DNA of 53,093 bases from a virus (IMGVR_UViG_3300043220_000093:1-53093), one strand, 5' to 3'; counted from the stretch's first letter, positions 5,407-24,577 are shown. Notes: generated by a model from the letters alone, not told the origin. Numbers and translations are program-made.

Positions 5407-6740
5407 TATTTACTCCATATATCTTTTAAAGGTGTTTTTTTATTGTTTCTAATACGGAAGCAGTTGTCTGTTGTTCCTGTGTAATCTATGTATCTTTGTA
5501 CTATGACATCGCAGCAATATTCATCAAGTTCAAGACCATAACAAATACGGTTTGTTTTTTCACAGGCTATAAGAGTTGAACCGGAACCGAGGAAAAAGTC
5601 GGTTACTAAACATTCTTTTTTACAGCTATTTAGCAAAGCCTTTGTAATCAATTCAACAGGTTTTTGGGTTGGGTGTAATGTTAATCCTTCAGAACCACCC
5701 TCAAACCATTTATTACCGTTATCATCTTCACTTCCAGCAGATTGAATAGACCTAACCTTCCAGACATTGGTTTGTGTTTTATCTCCAAACCACTCAGGAC
5801 TTCCTTTCGTAACAAACAATATAGGTTCATATTGCCATTTGTATTTTGCCATTGAATACGTTGGTATGTCTTTAACCCAGATAATTTTATTATTTATACT
5901 CCAATTCTTATAATTTTCCAACACGACATCAAATTCCATTACTAATAAAGCATGACATATATATATGTATGATTCTGTTTTTGTATATAAATCTATATTA
6001 TCATATATTTTTTTCAAGAAATTAATGAAGTCATTGATGTTATCATTTTTTACTTTTGTTTTAAAGCTTCTGCTTTCATAATTAACATTGTATGGCGGGT
6101 CAGTAAAAACCATATCCGCCTTTTTCCCATCCATCAGATTTCCAACCTGCTCCCCGTCAGTACTATCACCGCACATTACCCGATGCCCGTTCAACAAATA
6201 AACATCACCCGATTCAGTCTGTGGCTCCTCTGGTATCTCTGGAACTTCATTATCTTTATCGTCAGGCTCAATACCAGCATCAAGAACCTCACTTATATAA
6301 TCGACATCAAGCCCAGTACTATCTGATATTTCATCGAGATCATAATCTATTTCCTGAAATTCATAAATTATATCCCGGAGCAACTCTTCATCAAAATCAC
6401 CCTTCAAGTCTTCAGAATTTAACTTAACACTTAAGCCCCTTTCTTCAAGCTCATCCTCTACGAAAATAAACCGGACATCATCTGAATGAATCCAGTCTTG
6501 ATTTAAATCCAACAGAGCGCTGGTTCTTTGGTGCCCGGCAATCAATCTATTATTTAATTTATTTATAATGATAGGCTCAACCAAACGGAGACCGTCTGAC
6601 TCTTCCCAGTCTATCATATTTTTAGTATGATTTTTTATAGAATCTTTCAATCTTTGGAAGTTTTCAGGAGTTATTATTCTTGGATTGTAGTGTGCTTTTT
6701 CGAAATTTTCAAGAGGAACTTTATAGTTATTTTCTGTCAT
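5406..6740 (-). CDS. ParB-like N-terminal domain fused to an N6-adenine/N4-cytosine DNA methyltransferase (beta class)
   Basis: YNPR...IAGHQR (ParB/Srx), TDPPYN, HPTQKPVEL, DFFLGSGST. Confidence 0.93.
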   Translation of the reverse strand: MTENNYKVPLENFEKAHYNPRIITPENFQRLKDSIKNHTKNMIDWEESDGLRLVEPIIINKLNNRLIAGHQRTSALLDLNQDWIHSDDVRFIFVEDELEERGLSVKLNSEDLKGDFDEELLRDIIYEFQEIDYDLDEISDSTGLDVDYISEVLDAGIEPDDKDNEVPEIPEEPQTESGDVYLLNGHRVMCGDSTDGEQVGNLMDGKKADMVFTDPPYNVNYESRSFKTKVKNDNINDFINFLKKIYDNIDLYTKTESYIYICHALLVMEFDVVLENYKNWSINNKIIWVKDIPTYSMAKYKWQYEPILFVTKGSPEWFGDKTQTNVWKVRSIQSAGSEDDNGNKWFEGGSEGLTLHPTQKPVELITKALLNSCKKECLVTDFFLGSGSTLIACEKTNRICYGLELDEYCCDVIVQRYIDYTGTTDNCFRIRNNKKTPLKDIWSK

Positions 6741-6741
6741 A

Positions 6742-6900
6742 TCACCGGACCACCTTTACATAAAGGTTTGATGCATGTTTAGGATAACAAGGGACAGGTC
6801 GTGGGTATCTATTATTACAGCGAAGTGAACAAAAAGGGATTTCTTTTCCACCGATGAATACTTTCTTTACTATTGGAGACCCACAAGCTATACAATTCAT
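6742..6900 (-). CDS. Small zinc-finger protein (52 aa, TRASH/YacG-like)
   Basis: Below the ORF-track cutoff; manual translation MNCIACGSPIVKKVFIGGKEIPFCSLRCNNRYPRPVPC...; stop lies 1 nt before the MTase ATG. Confidence 0.7.
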   Translation of the reverse strand: MNCIACGSPIVKKVFIGGKEIPFCSLRCNNRYPRPVPCYPKHASNLYVKVVR

Positions 6901-6906
6901 GATTAG

Positions 6907-6935
6907 AAATTACCTGTATTTTTAGAAGTTGTCAA
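6907..6935 (-). promoter_or_regulatory. Sigma70-like promoter for the MTase-terminase operon
   Basis: TTGACA-17 nt-TAATTT on the minus strand. Confidence 0.55.
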
Positions 6936-6994
6936 GAATAAATTATTTATATATAACATCTTTTATTAGTCTGTGTTAACTTTTAGATATAAAA

Positions 6995-7531
6995 TTATTT
7001 TGTCTGTAACTCTCCCTTATGTTTTTCATCATTTTTTACTGTTTTCTTAAACATGCTATTTGCAGCCGTATGAAAAATGACAATGCCTTCGGGATTCATA
7101 AACCCAGGAGAAGCCTTACTCCCAAAATTTTTAAGTGTTTCTATTGAATATTCAGCTTCAATAGTTGAAAAAATACCTTCATAAATAATAGGTACAACAT
7201 GACAACATGCCGGACGTTCTATCCCCCACCTGGAAGTATTAAAAAGAGAGAATCTTTTTTCCGTTAAGTCATAACGCCTTTGAATACCTTGACCCCACCA
7301 TTCACCAAAATGTTGTCCCGGTCCAAGCTTTAACAACTCTTCTTTATTTTCATAAGCCCATCTTGCAAATCCAAAGTTATCATCTTTAGGAGTAATCCAT
7401 CTTTTTCTACTACCAATAAAAAACTCTCCATCTTCTCCAATAAGAATTTGAGAGTTTGTACCGTCAATCTTTTCAGTAATAACACAATCTCTTGAAAGTC
7501 TTGATATTTTTGGGAATCCTTGAAAGTCCAT
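6995..7531 (-). CDS. Rnl2-like RNA ligase (adenylation domain only)
   Basis: ITEKIDGTN (motif I), FGEW.G, FSLFN, EGIVI, FKK; likely start MDFQGFPK after SD AAGGAG. Confidence 0.85.
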   Translation of the reverse strand: MDFQGFPKISRLSRDCVITEKIDGTNSQILIGEDGEFFIGSRKRWITPKDDNFGFARWAYENKEELLKLGPGQHFGEWWGQGIQRRYDLTEKRFSLFNTSRWGIERPACCHVVPIIYEGIFSTIEAEYSIETLKNFGSKASPGFMNPEGIVIFHTAANSMFKKTVKNDEKHKGELQTK

Positions 7532-16893: not shown

Positions 16894-17769
16894 TCACACC
16901 TCCTGTTTATTTTTGTATTTTGTAAGATCTTCGTACTGTGACGAAGGATCAAAACTATCATTATTAACTAACTTCAATTTTGATTCTGATTTTAAATAAT
17001 TTGATAAAGGATCACTCTCATCAAGGAAATTCTCCAACCCTCTGCCTATAAAATCCCAAAATGTATATTTATGATTCCAGTAATATTTATCTTGTTGTAA
17101 TACTATTGCGTAATTCTTGACAGCTTTTATAACTTCATCTTTTCCGTAATCTTTGATCTGTTTGTAATGCTTAGTTTTTATTTTATTACTTAATACTTTA
17201 GAAGAATGTTTAGTAAGGTTGGATCTTATCCAGATTATATATATATCTTTCATTTCTGAATTGATTTCTTTGTCTCGAGGAGAAGGCTTTTCTTTCTCTG
17301 GCTCTTTCTCTATTTCTATCTCTTTCTCTAACTCTATCTCTGGTGGATATTTGTCGGACATTTGTCCATCACCTAAGATATTACCACTTTCTAACATACT
17401 TCTGTATTGACGTTTCCTGTCAGCTTCACTGCTTGACTTACCGATATAGTTCTGGATATCACTCATAAACATCTCACCAGAATCGAATATTGTAATAATA
17501 TCAAGCTCAACACCTATTTTAATTGCTTGTTTTACGTTATCGCTATTATGATTTATTACTTTTGATAAGATGCTTACTTTTTCCGGACTATAGGGGATTC
17601 TTTCTGTCATCATAAGTTTACCTTCAAACTTTAATGACTTCAGGAATAATTTCATTATGATATTTGAATATATATAACCGTTTTCCATGCTCTCAAGTAT
17701 TTTAATATTGTCCTGCTCAAAGAAGTTTTCCTTTAGTTTTAGATAATAATACTTCTTGCTGTCTGACAT
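16894..17769 (-). CDS. Phage replisome organiser / replication initiator
   Basis: KKYYYLKLKENFF...IGKSSSEADRKR..R; the EIELEKEIEIEKE low-complexity stretch (~17290-17340) is a candidate iteron region. Confidence 0.9.
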   Translation of the reverse strand: MSDSKKYYYLKLKENFFEQDNIKILESMENGYIYSNIIMKLFLKSLKFEGKLMMTERIPYSPEKVSILSKVINHNSDNVKQAIKIGVELDIITIFDSGEMFMSDIQNYIGKSSSEADRKRQYRSMLESGNILGDGQMSDKYPPEIELEKEIEIEKEPEKEKPSPRDKEINSEMKDIYIIWIRSNLTKHSSKVLSNKIKTKHYKQIKDYGKDEVIKAVKNYAIVLQQDKYYWNHKYTFWDFIGRGLENFLDESDPLSNYLKSESKLKLVNNDSFDPSSQYEDLTKYKNKQEV

Positions 17770-17781
17770 ATAAACCTTCCG

Positions 17782-18012
17782 TTATCTAATTATTTTATTT
17801 TTTAATATATCTTTCTCAAATTCGTTTATATCTTTATCTGTGACACCAATTTCATGCATACTTTCGCAATCAATTTTAATTTTATTTTCAAGCCATGCTT
17901 CGCATGAATTATATATAGTGAGATTTTTACATGTATCGAATTTATCACAGCATATACAATCTTCTATTATGACATAATGATTTTCTTTACTTAAGCTCAT
18001 ATTAACTTCCAT
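17782..18012 (-). CDS. Cys-rich hypothetical protein
   Basis: CICCDKFDTC; first gene after the structured leader. Confidence 0.55.
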   Translation of the reverse strand: MEVNMSLSKENHYVIIEDCICCDKFDTCKNLTIYNSCEAWLENKIKIDCESMHEIGVTDKDINEFEKDILKNKIIR

Positions 18013-18030
18013 TTATTTTTATATTTGGAC

Positions 18031-18158
18031 AAAAAAAGGCGACCTAAATTGTTATCTCCCATCCGAAAATGGAAGCTCCACCTAACAATTAGATCGCCTT
18101 TTTTAGGCTTCAAAAACAGGTGATGTCGGTGGAGGAGAGAGACTTCATCTGTTCTGAA
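18031..18158 (-). ncRNA. Structured leader RNA: two hairpins with complementary loops, ending in a terminator
   Basis: Hairpin 18109-18158 (loop CUCCACC); long stem 18031-18104 with unpaired GGUGGAG, an inner UUCG hairpin and a U7 tail. Confidence 0.7.
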
Positions 18159-18165
18159 TTCATAT

Positions 18166-18195
18166 AACATATCACATAGTTTACTTATTTGTCAA
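18166..18195 (-). promoter_or_regulatory. Sigma70-like promoter
   Basis: TTGACA-18 nt-TATGTT with extended -10 TG; predicted start coincides with the 5' base of hairpin 1. Confidence 0.65.
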
Positions 18196-18562
18196 CAACA
18201 ATATTAGAAAAATACTTAATAACATCCTTGCATTGTTCGATATTCATTTTAGCAATATGAGCCTCTTTCTTTTTCATACCCATTGCTATTTGTAGTTTTG
18301 TATAAGCTGCTTTCCTTGTGATACGTCCAGACCTCCAAAGAGAATCAAAAACACTATGGGCCTTTTTCCTCCAGGATCTCAATTCGTTATCAGCCAGAGT
18401 TCCAAGAGGGACATCGGTGTCTTTATGGGTACCGACATAAGCCTCACAATCTGGATATCTTGTACAAATATAAACCATACCATAGCTTTTACCATTATAG
18501 ATAATACTACTGTCTTTTAATTCTATAGGTGAGCCGCAATATGAACATGTTTCTATCTTCAT
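18185..18562 (-). CDS. DUF3268 family zinc-finger protein
   Basis: CSYCG...YIC..YPDCEAYVGTH...PLGTLA...R..AH..FD.LW...HIA. Confidence 0.88.
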   Translation of the reverse strand: MKIETCSYCGSPIELKDSSIIYNGKSYGMVYICTRYPDCEAYVGTHKDTDVPLGTLADNELRSWRKKAHSVFDSLWRSGRITRKAAYTKLQIAMGMKKKEAHIAKMNIEQCKDVIKYFSNIVVDK

Positions 18563-19241: not shown

Positions 19242-19799
19242 CTACTCATTTCTTGCTAGAGTCATAATCCATTTTTTATTATCTTCCCAGAACGATAAAG
19301 CACTTGGATCCATTTTTGATATTCTGTCATTATCAAAACCATCCCAATCATCAACACTATAGAACTCACACCCTATTTTGATATGAGTATCTATTATCCA
19401 TATAGTCCATCTGAGAGCGTTAATTATTTTTATATTTTGCGTTTTTACTCCGAAAAATACAATCCATTTACCGGCCTCAATCCCTTTACCGGCCTCAATC
19501 CCTTTACCGGCCTCAATCCCTTCACCGGCCATAATCCATTCACCGGCCTTAATCCATTCACCGGCCTTAATCCATTCACCGGCCTTAATCCCTTTACCGG
19601 CCTCAATCCATTTACCGGCCTTAATCCCTTCACAGGCCTCAATCCATTTACCGGCCTTAATCCATTTACCGGCCTTAATCCCCCCTTTTACATATAGTGG
19701 AATATTTATTATTATATTACCATCGCATACGATGTCTCCGATGAACTCATAATATCCAACTTTATCAATTAACCCTGGAAAATCTTTATCTACTATCAC
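19242..19799 (-). CDS. Hexapeptide-repeat (beta-helix-like) protein
   Basis: 12 x (G/W)I(K/E)AG(K/E); C-terminal IKIGCE...W...W domain. Confidence 0.8.
19461..19676. repeat. Tandem array of 12 x 18 bp
   Basis: Unit aatcc(a/c)tt(t/c)accggcct(t/c). Confidence 0.97.
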
Positions 19800-20842
19800 T
19801 GTTTACCTCTAATTGATTTTAATTTATCATTCTTCATCTTGTTTGCAATTGCTTTCTCTTCAGGAGACAACTCGAGTGCTTCAATTTCCTTTGATGCCTG
19901 AATCATATCAACCGGACTAAACACTGTATCCAGAAATATTTTTACTTTTACCATATTTCCACCCTGGGTGGTTTTTCCCGGCTCCGGCTCAACAGGGACA
20001 TCCTCAACAATCTCTGCATCAGTACAATTAGATCCGGGGTCTATGTTATTTTTCGCAAAATCATCTTTTGATTTTTCATCTGGTATTACATAAAGAATAC
20101 TGTTTCCGGTTGGGTCCAGCTGTATGTTATCTATCTTTTCCGGTTCCAGCATCAAAGGAAGTTTAACATTCTGTTCAATACAATTTCGAACAAGATCCAA
20201 ATGTTCTGTACTGGCATGAGGAATTAACTCAATAATAGGGTAACTTCTTTTTGTATTGTATTTGTCAGACACAACCTTCTTTACCCTCAAATCAAACGTA
20301 AAACCCTTTACCCTGCCCCCTGCGTTTTTCTTTACAAGATCATACGCATTGACAACACCATTGACAGAAGTTTTTTCACCCCCGGTATTGAGTTCCCACA
20401 CTCCCAGGATATCACGAATTTTCATTATTGCAAAACGTATAGTCAACTTTGCTTCGAACTTCTCCCCGGTTAGTTTCTCAATTTCACTCATGAATATTTG
20501 GCCCTGCTCTTTGGTCTCCTTAATTATTTTGTCAAAGTTTCCAGTCTTCTCATTATAGACCTCAAATTTTTTACCGTCTCCTTTAGCATACCAATTTTTA
20601 CCCTTCCGGAGTTCAAATCTTTGATTGCAAGAATACGCTTCGTAATCATCAAGGAAAACGATTTCAATACAATTTGTCTTTTCGGGGAAAGCCGTTTTAA
20701 ATTTGTTCGCATAATCCCCGGTTGCAATAAAATGGTCCAGGCTGGAAGGGTATTCTTTCCCGTTCCTCTTTATTTTTATACCGCACTTGACATGACCGAT
20801 AACGGATAAATAATCCTGATTATCTTGTATTATTCTACTCAT
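19796..20842 (-). CDS. Gp3-like / recombination-directionality-factor-like protein (putative strand-annealing partner)
   Basis: IGHVKCG.K....EYPSSLDHF...KGDG...LGVWEL.T; near the exonuclease. Confidence 0.6.
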   Translation of the reverse strand: MSRIIQDNQDYLSVIGHVKCGIKIKRNGKEYPSSLDHFIATGDYANKFKTAFPEKTNCIEIVFLDDYEAYSCNQRFELRKGKNWYAKGDGKKFEVYNEKTGNFDKIIKETKEQGQIFMSEIEKLTGEKFEAKLTIRFAIMKIRDILGVWELNTGGEKTSVNGVVNAYDLVKKNAGGRVKGFTFDLRVKKVVSDKYNTKRSYPIIELIPHASTEHLDLVRNCIEQNVKLPLMLEPEKIDNIQLDPTGNSILYVIPDEKSKDDFAKNNIDPGSNCTDAEIVEDVPVEPEPGKTTQGGNMVKVKIFLDTVFSPVDMIQASKEIEALELSPEEKAIANKMKNDKLKSIRGKQ

Positions 20843-24284: not shown

Positions 24285-24327
24285 GGTGTTCTCCCTTTTT
24301 AAATTTTATTTAACTTCTTATAATAAC

Positions 24328-24365
24328 AATATATAAAAAGGGAAACTATTTGTCAACAATTATTC
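24328..24365 (-). promoter_or_regulatory. Major early sigma70-like promoter (copy 1)
   Basis: GAATAATTG-TTGACA-17 nt-TATATT with AT-rich upstream sequence. Confidence 0.8.
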
Positions 24366-24379
24366 TTTTATTTGTTAGG

Positions 24380-24415
24380 AAATAAAGAAAACCTGCCAGG
24401 GAGAGCAGGTTTCTT
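24380..24415 (-). terminator. Intrinsic terminator ending the late/lysis operon
   Basis: aaaccugc-ucucccug-gcagguuu followed by ucuuuauuu. Confidence 0.75.
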
Positions 24416-24577
24416 GTAGGTTGTACTTCGTGGTATTATTAGAATGGCTTACAGCACCATCAGGCTGACGTGCGGTACTGGTTTATATTGATTATCGTGT
24501 ATGTGACCTTTACTTGCTAAAGTGCCGTGTGGGCCACCACGTGTAGCCTATGAGTGGATGAGAATAGTGATTAAATC

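What the first reader, a model, noticed from the sequence alone, without database searches (positions are those of the whole stretch)
18031..18195. Kissing-loop attenuator or antisense-like RNA controlling the replication initiator
A promoter (18195-18166) starts exactly at hairpin 1, whose loop is UCUCUC-CUCCACC. Hairpin 2 is a ~22-bp stem with a U7 tail. It encloses an unpaired GGUGGAG (the perfect complement of CUCCACC) and an inner CUUCCAUU-UUCG-GAUGGGAG hairpin whose GGGAGA can pair with UCUCUC. Two complementary boxes plus premature termination upstream of replication genes recall the P4 CI and P1 C4 RNA immunity systems. It could provide an RNA-only lysis/latency or copy-number switch in a phage with no recognisable repressor or integrase.
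Basis: partly seen in the sequence, partly recalled or inferred. Interest (0 to 1): 0.75.

Follow-up and report, generated by a model that had tools for sequence, protein, structure and literature searches.

The report
Kissing-loop terminator leader before replication genes
Just before this phage's DNA-replication genes lies a promoter followed by a short folded RNA whose first hairpin loop base-pairs with the inside of a transcription-stop hairpin, and because unrelated-looking copies in other phages keep that pairing with different letters it is probably a real, uncatalogued gate on transcription.

Summary
On the minus strand, a sigma-70-type promoter (18195-18166) is followed by hairpin 1 (18158-18109) and a 22-pair terminator hairpin with U7 (18104-18031). 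The loop box CUCCACC is the exact complement of the unpaired GGUGGAG inside the terminator.

In the window alone the 7-base match is weak (p about 0.1). The same layout, with different box letters each time, stands before replisome-organiser genes in five other phage loci, and at three more places in one related phage.

Among 17 strong long-stem terminators in 604,793 bases, 6 had an upstream complement at p<=0.01, against 1 downstream. Rfam has no match, so it is not a C4/P4 CI or guanidine-IV member.

Best reading: a cis-acting attenuator. The box pairing forms before the terminator's 3' arm is made and hinders its closure, as the guanidine-IV kissing loop does. Function, its sign and its signal are untested. 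Earlier unchecked notes of this scan report the same design in at least 50 other genomes.

The parts
18166..18195 (-). Sigma-70-type promoter: -35 TTGACA (18195-18190), 18-nt spacer, TG-n-TATGTT (18174-18166). The -35 overlaps the stop codon (18187-18185) of the DUF3268 gene. The predicted start is about 18159.
   Evidence: This is a pattern match only. TTGACA-type promoters stand at the same relative place in L010, L074, L008, L005 and G001 7292.
18109..18158 (-). Hairpin 1: an imperfect stem of about 16 pairs with the 13-nt loop UCUCUCCUCCACC (18140-18128).
   Evidence: MFE and centroid structures.: -11.7 kcal/mol, z -3.1.
18128..18134 (-). Box 1, CUCCACC, in the loop of hairpin 1.
   Evidence: It is the perfect complement of box 2. 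Duplex energy -11.3 kcal/mol.
18032..18104 (-). Hairpin 2, the terminator hairpin: outer stem 18104-18083 paired with 18054-18032, enclosing box 2 and an inner hairpin.
   Evidence: -27.2 kcal/mol for 18100-18036.: -30.8 kcal/mol, z -5.5. The sense strand is 9 kcal/mol more stable than the reverse strand for the 65-nt core.
18076..18082 (-). Box 2, GGUGGAG: the unpaired 5'-side internal loop of hairpin 2.
   Evidence: All 7 positions are unpaired in the MFE structure.
18056..18075 (-). Inner hairpin CUUCCAUU-UUCG-GAUGGGAG (UUCG loop at 18067-18064).
   Evidence: Small hairpins closed by the four-base loops GCAA and GAAA follow box 2 in the same position in L010 and G001 7292.
18031..18037 (-). 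U7 run that ends the terminator.
17782..18012 (-). First gene behind the terminator: a Cys-rich ORF of 76 aa (ATG 18012), or shorter from ATG 18000 with GGAAG as its ribosome site. No family was found for it.
   Evidence: Only 18 to 30 nt lie between the U run and its possible start codons, which leaves no room for a promoter.
16894..17769 (-). Replisome organiser gene (PF09681, E 3.4e-22). It heads the replication module, which runs on to the DnaB helicase gene at 15173-13932.

Best explanation
This is a cis-acting transcription attenuator in the leader of the replication operon.

A host-type promoter at the end of the DUF3268 gene starts an RNA that folds first into hairpin 1 and then into a very stable terminator hairpin with U7. 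The terminator lies 18-30 nt before the next start codon, so the replication genes can only be transcribed by read-through.

The loop of hairpin 1 (CUCCACC) pairs with GGUGGAG inside the terminator hairpin. GGUGGAG is made before the terminator's 3' arm, so the pairing can form first. It could form as a loop-loop kiss, or it could extend into a 22-pair imperfect helix between the 3' half of hairpin 1 and the terminator's 5' arm. Either form hinders closure of the terminator stem while the polymerase crosses the U run, and so gives read-through. If the pairing fails to form in time, a transcript of about 129 nt is released.

Shown: the structures, their stability, and the recurrence of the pairing with other letters in other phages.

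Inferred: that hairpin 2 terminates, that the pairing opposes termination and does not help it, and whatever sets the balance. Candidates are polymerase speed, Mg2+, a protein, or the short RNA itself acting in trans.
For: 1. Structure. z is -4.13 for the whole leader and -5.5 for hairpin 2.

2. Recurrence before replisome-organiser genes. I examined 45 non-redundant upstream regions and 38 further ones (two of these, L091 and L092, repeat contigs of the first set). Six carry the layout hairpin, then a long terminator hairpin with a U run, with a box upstream that is the perfect complement of an unpaired box inside the terminator. The boxes are:
- window: CUCCACC/GGUGGAG
- L010: AUUGGUACA/UGUACCAAU
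- L074: GAUCGGGG/CCCCGAUC
- L006: CGUUGCAG/CUGCAACG
- L008: GGGACU/AGUCCC
- L118: GUGGAACUC/GAGUUCCAC
Three more units with other boxes lie in the L010 phage.

3. Statistics. Per-element p against 5000 shuffles runs from 0.0002 to 0.098. In the unselected test, 17 strong long-stem terminators were found in 604,793 bases. Six had an upstream complement at p<=0.01, against one downstream. With the reverse-strand copies of the window and L006 elements removed, that is 5 against 0 of 15.

4. Position. The hairpin ends 17-23 nt before the next start codon in the eight other elements, and 23 or 35 nt before it in the window.

5. Strand. The sense strand folds better than the antisense strand in 9 of 9 leaders, by 0.1-10.0 kcal/mol, with 1-8 G.U pairs each. 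The structure is therefore RNA of this strand.

6. Order of folding. In transcripts cut just before the terminator's 3' arm, the MFE contains the box helix in 7 of 9 elements. It is 2.1 to 9.6 kcal/mol better than folds that leave box 2 free. In the window it is -28.1 against -26.0, with the helix running on into the terminator's 5' arm.

7. Precedent. [quoted passage not shown]
Against: No expression data exist. The one run that holds the stretch is DNA.

Once complete, the terminator state is far more stable (-37.3 against -28.1 kcal/mol). The effect would therefore have to be kinetic.

The boxes lie in loops, so a kiss may coexist with both hairpins. In that case it could just as well stabilise the terminated RNA.

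In 2 of 9 elements (L074, L008) the nascent MFE keeps hairpin 1, not the box helix. In L074, G001 4959 and G001 19589, box 1 is not confined to a hairpin loop.

The nine elements were chosen because they show the pairing, so their combined p (5e-11) is inflated.

The window's own match has p of only about 0.1.

A good TTGACA-type promoter is seen in only 5 of the 9 elements (window, L010, L074, L008, G001 7292).

The host is unknown, so the use of intrinsic terminators is assumed. The assumption rests on the Bacillota-phage relatives of the organiser gene.
Confidence: 0.45

Rival explanations
1. P4 CI / P1 C4-like self-addressed regulator. The terminated RNA of about 129 nt builds up. Through box 2 (or box 1) it pairs in trans with the matching box on nascent leaders. 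That blocks the cis pairing and enforces termination, giving a negative feedback or immunity on the replication genes. This can be layered on the cis attenuator.
For: A strong promoter next to a strong terminator should give an abundant short RNA. Each unit has its own private box pair: four different pairs in one phage. That is what address-specific RNA-RNA control predicts. P4 prevents expression of its replication genes through a leader-derived CI RNA that pairs with seqA and seqC in the same transcript (passage of PMC4825925).
Against: There is no Rfam C4-type match. No lysogeny genes were found in the window proteins scanned. In the free RNA the two boxes can pair with each other, which would mask them. 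No further copy of the boxes above chance was found in the four genomes searched.
Confidence: 0.17
2. Promoter-proximal terminator released by a processive antitermination factor. This would resemble the lambda PR' - 6S RNA - tR' unit opened by Q, or HK022 put RNA (both recalled, not taken from a call). The box pairing would then serve RNA stability or factor recognition.
For: The architecture is promoter, short RNA, terminator, then genes. One relative carries several such units, as expected for a gene class switched on together.
Against: No antiterminator-like protein was identified in the window. This model does not need private, non-conserved boxes. No shared sequence beyond the promoter hexamers is seen among the units.
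Confidence: 0.12
3. A stand-alone stable small RNA. Its target would lie elsewhere. In the window, the anti-Shine-Dalgarno-like loop CCUCCACC could bind GGUGGAGG ribosome-binding regions.
For: It has its own promoter and terminator, and small hairpins closed by four-base loops (UUCG, GCAA, GAAA) in three units. GGUGGAG occurs 11 times in the sense strand of the window against 2.9 expected.
Against: The boxes of the other eight elements are not Shine-Dalgarno-like. The constant 17-23 nt distance to the next start codon, with no room for another promoter, ties the element to the gene behind it.
Confidence: 0.12
4. An ordinary promoter/terminator junction, with the complementarity arising by chance or at the DNA level (an inverted repeat bound by a protein, or an origin structure).
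For: The window's own 7-nt match has p of about 0.1. Promoter-like matches are near background in this AT-rich DNA.
Against: The pairing recurs with different letters. The boxes sit in unpaired loops of RNA hairpins. G.U pairs and the sense/antisense energy asymmetry in 9 of 9 leaders point to RNA. Strong terminators without the boxes exist in the same genomes (7 of the 15 have p>0.09), so the feature is not a general property of terminators there.
Confidence: 0.05

Closest known systems
Guanidine-IV riboswitch (mepA motif)
   Same: An upstream hairpin loop forms a kissing loop with the hairpin that becomes the terminator. The kissing state hinders the complete terminator stem and gives read-through, and the decision falls within a narrow co-transcriptional window (passages of PMC11611296).
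   Different: The riboswitch needs guanidine. As I recall it also has conserved loop nucleotides; that point comes from no call. Here the loops share no sequence between elements, and the pairing is 6-9 Watson-Crick pairs (-6.3 to -14.1 kcal/mol). No Rfam model matches, and the setting is phage early and replication operons.
Phage P4 CI RNA (seqA/seqB/seqC) and P1/P7 C4 RNA
   Same: A leader of replication or antirepressor genes carries mutually complementary boxes within one transcript, with premature termination as the outcome (P4 facts from a passage of PMC4825925; P1 details recalled).
   Different: Those RNAs are processed from the leader and act in trans in lysogens. They form a curated Rfam family, which gives no match here. 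Here the second box lies inside the terminator hairpin itself, and no lysogeny module was found in the window.
Antisense-RNA transcription attenuators of plasmid rep genes (pT181, pIP501/pAMbeta1)
   Same: A leader of a replication-initiator gene with an intrinsic terminator, where use of the terminator is decided by fast RNA-RNA loop contacts and an alternative upstream pairing (recalled; reviews were listed but not read).
   Different: There the partner RNA is transcribed from the opposite strand. Here both boxes are on one strand, so selection must maintain the complementarity. A plus-strand promoter-like site (17942-17970, 9 of 12) is at background level, and the A-run that would make the terminator work in both directions is not kept in the relatives (1-4 A).
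Zipper-type attenuator cATT of plasmid pLS20
   Same: In a Gram-positive mobile element, the leader has an upstream stem-loop whose sequence is complementary to the downstream terminator, which generates an antiterminator (abstract of PMC13401043).
   Different: There the flanks extend a central long stem within a 456-nt leader. Here a hairpin loop addresses the unpaired inside of the terminator within a leader of about 130 nt. I read only the abstract and outline.

Membership tests
Rfam C4 antisense RNA family (P1 C4, P4 CI, IsrK relatives) | A match to the family covariance model at its gathering score. | tested here: not met
   No family reached gathering score in the whole window or in seven related sources. 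At E<=10 over 17800-18400 there were only noise hits: mir-556 at 21.7 bits against a cut-off of 84, and Srn266 at 21.5 against 63.
P4 CI / P1 C4 type immunity RNA (mechanism) | A stable RNA processed from the leader that acts in trans on complementary boxes. | not testable with these tools
   No RNA run holds the stretch.
Guanidine-IV riboswitch | A match to the Rfam model, with loop nucleotides conserved between members. | tested here: not met
   No Rfam hit. The loop and box sequences differ in all nine elements.
Guanidine-IV riboswitch | A kissing loop between an upstream hairpin and the terminator-forming hairpin. | tested here: met
   The boxes are unpaired in both hairpins and perfectly complementary. 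This shows that the element works like the riboswitch, not that it belongs to the family.
Intrinsic (factor-independent) terminator | A stable stem directly followed by a U run. | tested here: met
   -27.2 to -30.8 kcal/mol with U7. Actual termination was not tested.
Transcription attenuator with an alternative antiterminator fold | An alternative pairing that involves the terminator's 5' part and is favoured before the 3' arm exists. | tested here: met
   In silico only. The window's 105-nt nascent RNA has an MFE of -28.1 with the box helix extended into the 5' arm, against -26.0 with box 2 free. The box helix is in the nascent MFE in 7 of 9 elements.
'Kissing-loop terminator leader' design noted earlier by this scan (informal, unpublished as far as my searches show) | A promoter-proximal hairpin whose loop complements the unpaired loop of a terminator hairpin, with private letters in each copy, and the terminator directly before a start codon. 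| tested here: met
   for the features. The earlier notes are unchecked AI notes and are not counted as support.
Sigma-70-type promoter | -35 and -10 hexamers at 16-18 nt spacing. | tested here: inconclusive
   10 of 12 matches plus TG. However, 50 such sites were found in 10 kb against 40 expected by shuffling.

The most novel reading that the evidence does not exclude
These leaders are a ligand-free, 'privately addressed' class of RNA gate. Each operon carries its own loop code. The kiss acts as a kinetic or topological lock on the terminator. The released short RNA titrates the same code on nascent leaders in trans. Expression of phage replication genes would then be self-limited by RNA alone and would track template copy number. 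That amounts to plasmid-style copy control built from a sense RNA, without any antisense gene or protein.
Probability: 0.15. Interest if true: 0.85.

Novelty: new variant of a known kind. Interest (0 to 1): 0.65.

Why it matters
If the reading holds, the replication genes of this phage, and early operons of other phages, are gated by a short RNA that needs no ligand and no conserved sequence. It needs only a loop that matches the inside of its own terminator.

Such elements escape sequence-based catalogues: Rfam has none of them. They would add a widespread layer of timing or dosage control to phage early transcription.

The private loop codes would also be a ready source of orthogonal RNA parts for engineered terminators.

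For this window, it would mean that the replication module is not simply co-transcribed with the genes upstream.

Tried and rejected
- Rfam: nothing at gathering score. The sub-threshold hits mir-556 and Srn266 are terminator-shaped noise.

- GenBank phages: no DNA match to 10-30 kb of the window or to the element. Distant blastn hit only the organiser gene.

- Exact 27-nt pattern of the element in viral contigs: no match.

- Relatives of the flanking genes. The DUF3268 protein gave two loci without the element or the same gene order. The 76-aa protein gave none.

- Genome contigs: one spurious 15-residue hit.

L002 and L007 (one phage) have no terminator upstream.

- Sequencing runs: no RNA holder listed, only one DNA run, which may be the source sample.

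- Third copies of the boxes. Window: CUCCACC occurs 3 times and GGUGGAG 11 times on the sense strand; the latter is Shine-Dalgarno-like. L010, L118 and L074 genomes: extra copies at chance level, and the one in L118's phage lies inside an oppositely oriented repressor-like gene.

- The second box pair UCUCUC/GGGAGA: no counterpart in any relative.

- A general third pairing of the terminator interior with the next ribosome site: seen in the window (9 nt, p 0.015) and in G001 7292 (7 nt, p 0.048), but not overall.

- RNAduplex over long stretches was too permissive to be useful.

- A genome-wide control with weak hairpins was uninformative, because the 'interiors' were 60-80 nt long.

- Antisense RNA from the plus strand: the promoter-like site is at background level, and the A-run is not conserved.

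- Literature: four searches found no paper that describes this design in phages. The library is partial, so this does not prove it is unpublished.

- Tool slips: one script timed out, and three calls failed on coordinates that gave stop codons.

Full report
**What the window is**

The window is a whole IMG/VR virus record of 53,093 bases, rated 99% complete. Nearly all long ORFs lie on the minus strand.

Read on that strand, the gene order is as follows. Portal (53086-51932) and structural genes come first, then an M15 peptidase/endolysin-like gene (25182-24772). Next is a terminator and a TTGACA promoter near 24.4-24.3 kb, followed by small early genes.

The region of the finding comes next, followed by:
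- a 76-aa ORF
- a replisome organiser (PF09681, 17769-16894)
- a YopX gene
- a DnaB helicase (15173-13932)
- methylases
- the large terminase (4529-2958)
.

None of the window proteins scanned (14 proteins; 22; 27) matched an integrase or a CI/Cro-type repressor. These sets overlap, and most structural genes were not scanned.

The organiser's relatives among named phages are Streptococcus, Lactococcus, Staphylococcus, Brochothrix, Oenococcus and Clostridium phages (100 records, all under 60% identity). A Bacillota host is therefore likely but not shown.

**The observation**

In window coordinates on the minus strand:
- Promoter: TTGACA 18195-18190, an 18-nt spacer, and TG-n-TATGTT ending at 18166. 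The -35 overlaps the stop codon of the DUF3268 zinc-finger gene.
- Hairpin 1: 18158-18109, with the loop UCUCUCCUCCACC.
- Hairpin 2: 18104-18032, with a 22-position arm.
- Unpaired GGUGGAG: 18082-18076.
- Inner hairpin closed by UUCG: 18075-18056.
- U7: 18037-18031.

The 146-nt stretch folds at -44.2 kcal/mol (z -4.13; 0 of 200 shuffles as good).

The promoter match is weak evidence on its own, because such matches are near background in this DNA (50 found, 40.0 +/- 5.8 expected). The 7-base complementarity alone is also not beyond chance (p 0.098).

**Relatives**

No close relative of this phage is on hand. There was no DNA match in GenBank phages. The best organiser homologue is 66% identical (L010).

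I therefore collected the DNA upstream of organiser homologues. This gave 85 sequences falling into 45 non-redundant upstream regions. It gave 59 further loci falling into 38 regions. From I dropped 21 loci whose contigs I already held. L091 and L092 still repeat earlier contigs.

A terminator scan of these regions found six with the same anatomy as the window. Counting the window, they are L010, L074, L006, L008 and L118. The anatomy has these parts:
- usually a TTGACA-type promoter
- a first hairpin
- a long-stemmed terminator hairpin with a U run
- 17-23 nt later, the start codon of the organiser (L074, L006, L008, L118) or of a small ORF that precedes it (window, L010)

In each one, a box upstream is the perfect complement of a box that is unpaired inside the terminator hairpin. 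The upstream box lies in the loop of hairpin 1 in the window, L010, L008 and L118. The letters differ every time:
- window: CUCCACC/GGUGGAG
- L010: AUUGGUACA/UGUACCAAU
- L074: GAUCGGGG/CCCCGAUC
- L006: CGUUGCAG/CUGCAACG
- L008: GGGACU/AGUCCC
- L118: GUGGAACUC/GAGUUCCAC
.

L010 and the window even share the sub-layout: outer stem, box 2, a small hairpin closed by a four-base loop, then the outer stem again.

L005 has a smaller terminator, flanked by CCAACAG/CUGUUGG and with no box inside it. I did not count it. Most other regions have no intergenic gap at all.

**Not only before replication genes**

I scanned four whole phage records for terminators. The L010 phage (G001) has three more units with their own boxes:
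- UAUCGCC/GGCGAUA, with the window's sub-layout and a GAAA-closed inner hairpin
- ACCAUGAC/GUCAUGGU
- AAACACAA/UUGUGUUU

The first of these heads an operon with a KilAC antirepressor-type gene and a second replisome organiser. The third heads an AntA/KilAC gene just upstream of the L010 unit. The second precedes genes of unknown function.

No unit was found in the structural or lysis regions of the four genomes. The window has only this one. Fourteen other gaps of the window were folded and showed none.

**Statistics**

For the nine elements, p against 5000 dinucleotide shuffles of the 70 nt upstream runs from 0.0002 to 0.098. The combined value of 5e-11 is inflated, because I chose these nine for showing the pairing.

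The fairer test is. In all the DNA held (167 sources; 604,793 bases; both strands) there were 17 distinct strong terminator hairpins with an outer stem of at least 9 pairs and an interior of 6-45 nt. Six had an upstream complement at p<=0.01. Only one had a complement at that level in the 70 nt downstream.

Two of the 17 rows are merely the reverse strands of the window and L006 elements. Without them the count is 5 against 0 of 15.

That scan missed the L118 element. Seven of the 15 have upstream p above 0.09. These are six terminators outside the nine elements (the one after the capsid region among them) and the window's own hairpin. The feature is therefore not a general property of terminators in these genomes.

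**RNA, and of this strand**

The sense strand of the leader folds better than its reverse complement in 9 of 9 elements, by 0.1 to 10.0 kcal/mol, with 1-8 G.U pairs each. That argues against a DNA-level inverted repeat.

**How it may work**

The terminator stands between a strong-looking promoter and a start codon 18-30 nt away. The genes behind it therefore need read-through.

I folded the window's transcript at growing lengths. Up to box 2, hairpin 1 stands. At 105-115 nt the inner hairpin has emerged but the terminator's 3' arm has not. At that stage the minimum-energy fold switches to a 22-pair imperfect helix, with these features:
- CUCCACC pairs with GGUGGAG.
- The 3' half of hairpin 1 (GACA.., CCU, GUUUUU) pairs with the terminator's 5' arm (..UGUU, AGG, AAAAAA).
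- Its energy is -28.1 kcal/mol, against -26.0 with box 2 kept free.

At 122 nt the terminator wins at -37.3 kcal/mol.

The same test on all nine elements puts the box helix in the nascent fold in 7 of 9, with gains of 2.1-9.6 kcal/mol. L074 and L008 keep hairpin 1.

Box 2 is always made before the 3' arm. The pairing can therefore form first, either as a kiss onto the standing hairpin 1 or as this alternative helix. It then encloses the 5' arm in a closed loop. My inference is that the two-turn terminator stem cannot wind up inside that loop until the pairing opens.

This is the logic reported for the guanidine-IV riboswitch. [quoted passage not shown] I took that lead from earlier notes of this scan and checked it in the paper.

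My preferred reading is therefore a kinetic attenuator in which the box pairing is the antiterminator. I put about 0.85 on the element being a real, selected RNA structure. I put about 0.6 on its gating the downstream operon in cis. I put about 0.45 on the full statement, including the sign.

What tunes the element is open. Candidates are polymerase speed, Mg2+, a protein, or the released short RNA itself.

**Rivals**

1. P4 does block its replication genes with a leader-derived RNA that pairs with boxes in the same transcript (passage of PMC4825925). This is compatible with the cis model and cannot be tested here.

2. A terminator opened by a processive antiterminator, as at lambda PR' (recalled), would explain several units in one phage. 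It would not explain why each needs a private code.

3. A free-standing small RNA is possible. The window's loop 1 is anti-Shine-Dalgarno-like, and GGUGGAG occurs 11 times on the sense strand against 2.9 expected. The other eight box pairs are not of that kind.

4. Chance, or a DNA-level repeat, is unlikely given.

**Comparison with the known**

The element is not a member of any Rfam family. That excludes the C4/CI and guanidine-IV families by their models.

It most resembles guanidine-IV in mechanics and P4 CI in setting. It also shares the idea of an upstream segment complementary to the terminator with the pLS20 zipper attenuator (abstract only) and with pT181-type attenuators (recalled).

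It differs from all of these in having two boxes on one strand, no conserved sequence, no evident ligand and a private code for each unit.

Four full-text searches found no description of such phage leaders. The library is partial.

Earlier unchecked notes of this scan describe 'kissing-loop terminator leader RNAs' in at least 50 other genomes, before antirepressor, replication, endonuclease and late genes. This window is therefore another instance of a design the scan has met before. I had reached the recurrence independently before reading those notes.

**Verdict**

It is a kissing-loop attenuator. It is not a C4/CI family member, it has no second box pair, and nothing points to a latency switch.
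- Novelty: a new variant of a known kind, namely structure-switching transcription attenuators.
- Interest: 0.65.

Noticed in passing
window 18067-18075 and 18006-18014 (minus strand): CUUCCAUUU is the 5' arm of the inner hairpin, directly after box 2. It is the perfect 9-nt complement of AAAUGGAAG, which covers the first ATG (18012) and the GGAAG ribosome site of the second ATG (18000) of the 76-aa ORF. p is 0.015. G001 7292 has a similar 7-nt match at its start codon (p 0.048), but there is no general trend across the elements.
   Followed up: partly
window 18148-18110 (minus strand): A 12-codon mini-ORF (AUG ... UGA) runs through hairpin 1 and box 1. It has no Shine-Dalgarno sequence, and no consistent counterpart was seen in the other leaders on reading them, so a leader-peptide mechanism is not supported.
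   Followed up: partly
L171 (G001) 5756-7292 and L010 1-1870: The closest related phage has two replisome-organiser modules. Each lies behind a KilAC-type antirepressor gene and a leader unit of this kind.
   Followed up: partly
L005 478-560: A variant leader. A G6/C6 terminator is flanked by CCAACAG and two copies of CUGUUGG, the second overlapping the GGAGG ribosome site of the organiser gene.
   Followed up: no
L016, 330 nt upstream of position 1201: A very strongly structured GC-rich region lies before the organiser gene: -76.5 kcal/mol for 242 nt and -109.9 for 342 nt. It has a different design and was not analysed.
   Followed up: no
window about 19430-19530 (minus strand): Three to four tandem copies of an 18-nt unit (GGCCGGTAAAGGGATTGA-like) lie inside the 185-aa ORF 19242-19799. 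They were seen in the output.
   Followed up: no
window 24300-24420 (minus strand): A terminator (GAAACCUGC...GCAGGUUUUC plus U) follows the lysis gene. It is followed by TTGACA-17-TATATT, probably the first early promoter. A similar promoter lies at about 6900.
   Followed up: no
L171 (G001) about 19600-19700, minus strand: Sequence resembling the 3' part of a tRNA (GGTTCGACTCCC...CCA) stands just upstream of the G001 19589 unit. Rfam gave no tRNA hit there.
   Followed up: no
L008 912-1245: The organiser gene of this metagenome contig is interrupted by a frameshift near position 1010. This may be a sequencing error or a broken gene.
   Followed up: no
window 19796-20842 (minus strand): A 348-aa protein matches PF18897 (Gp3-like, recombination-directionality-factor-like; E 5.6e-20), although no integrase was found in the proteins scanned.
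   Followed up: no
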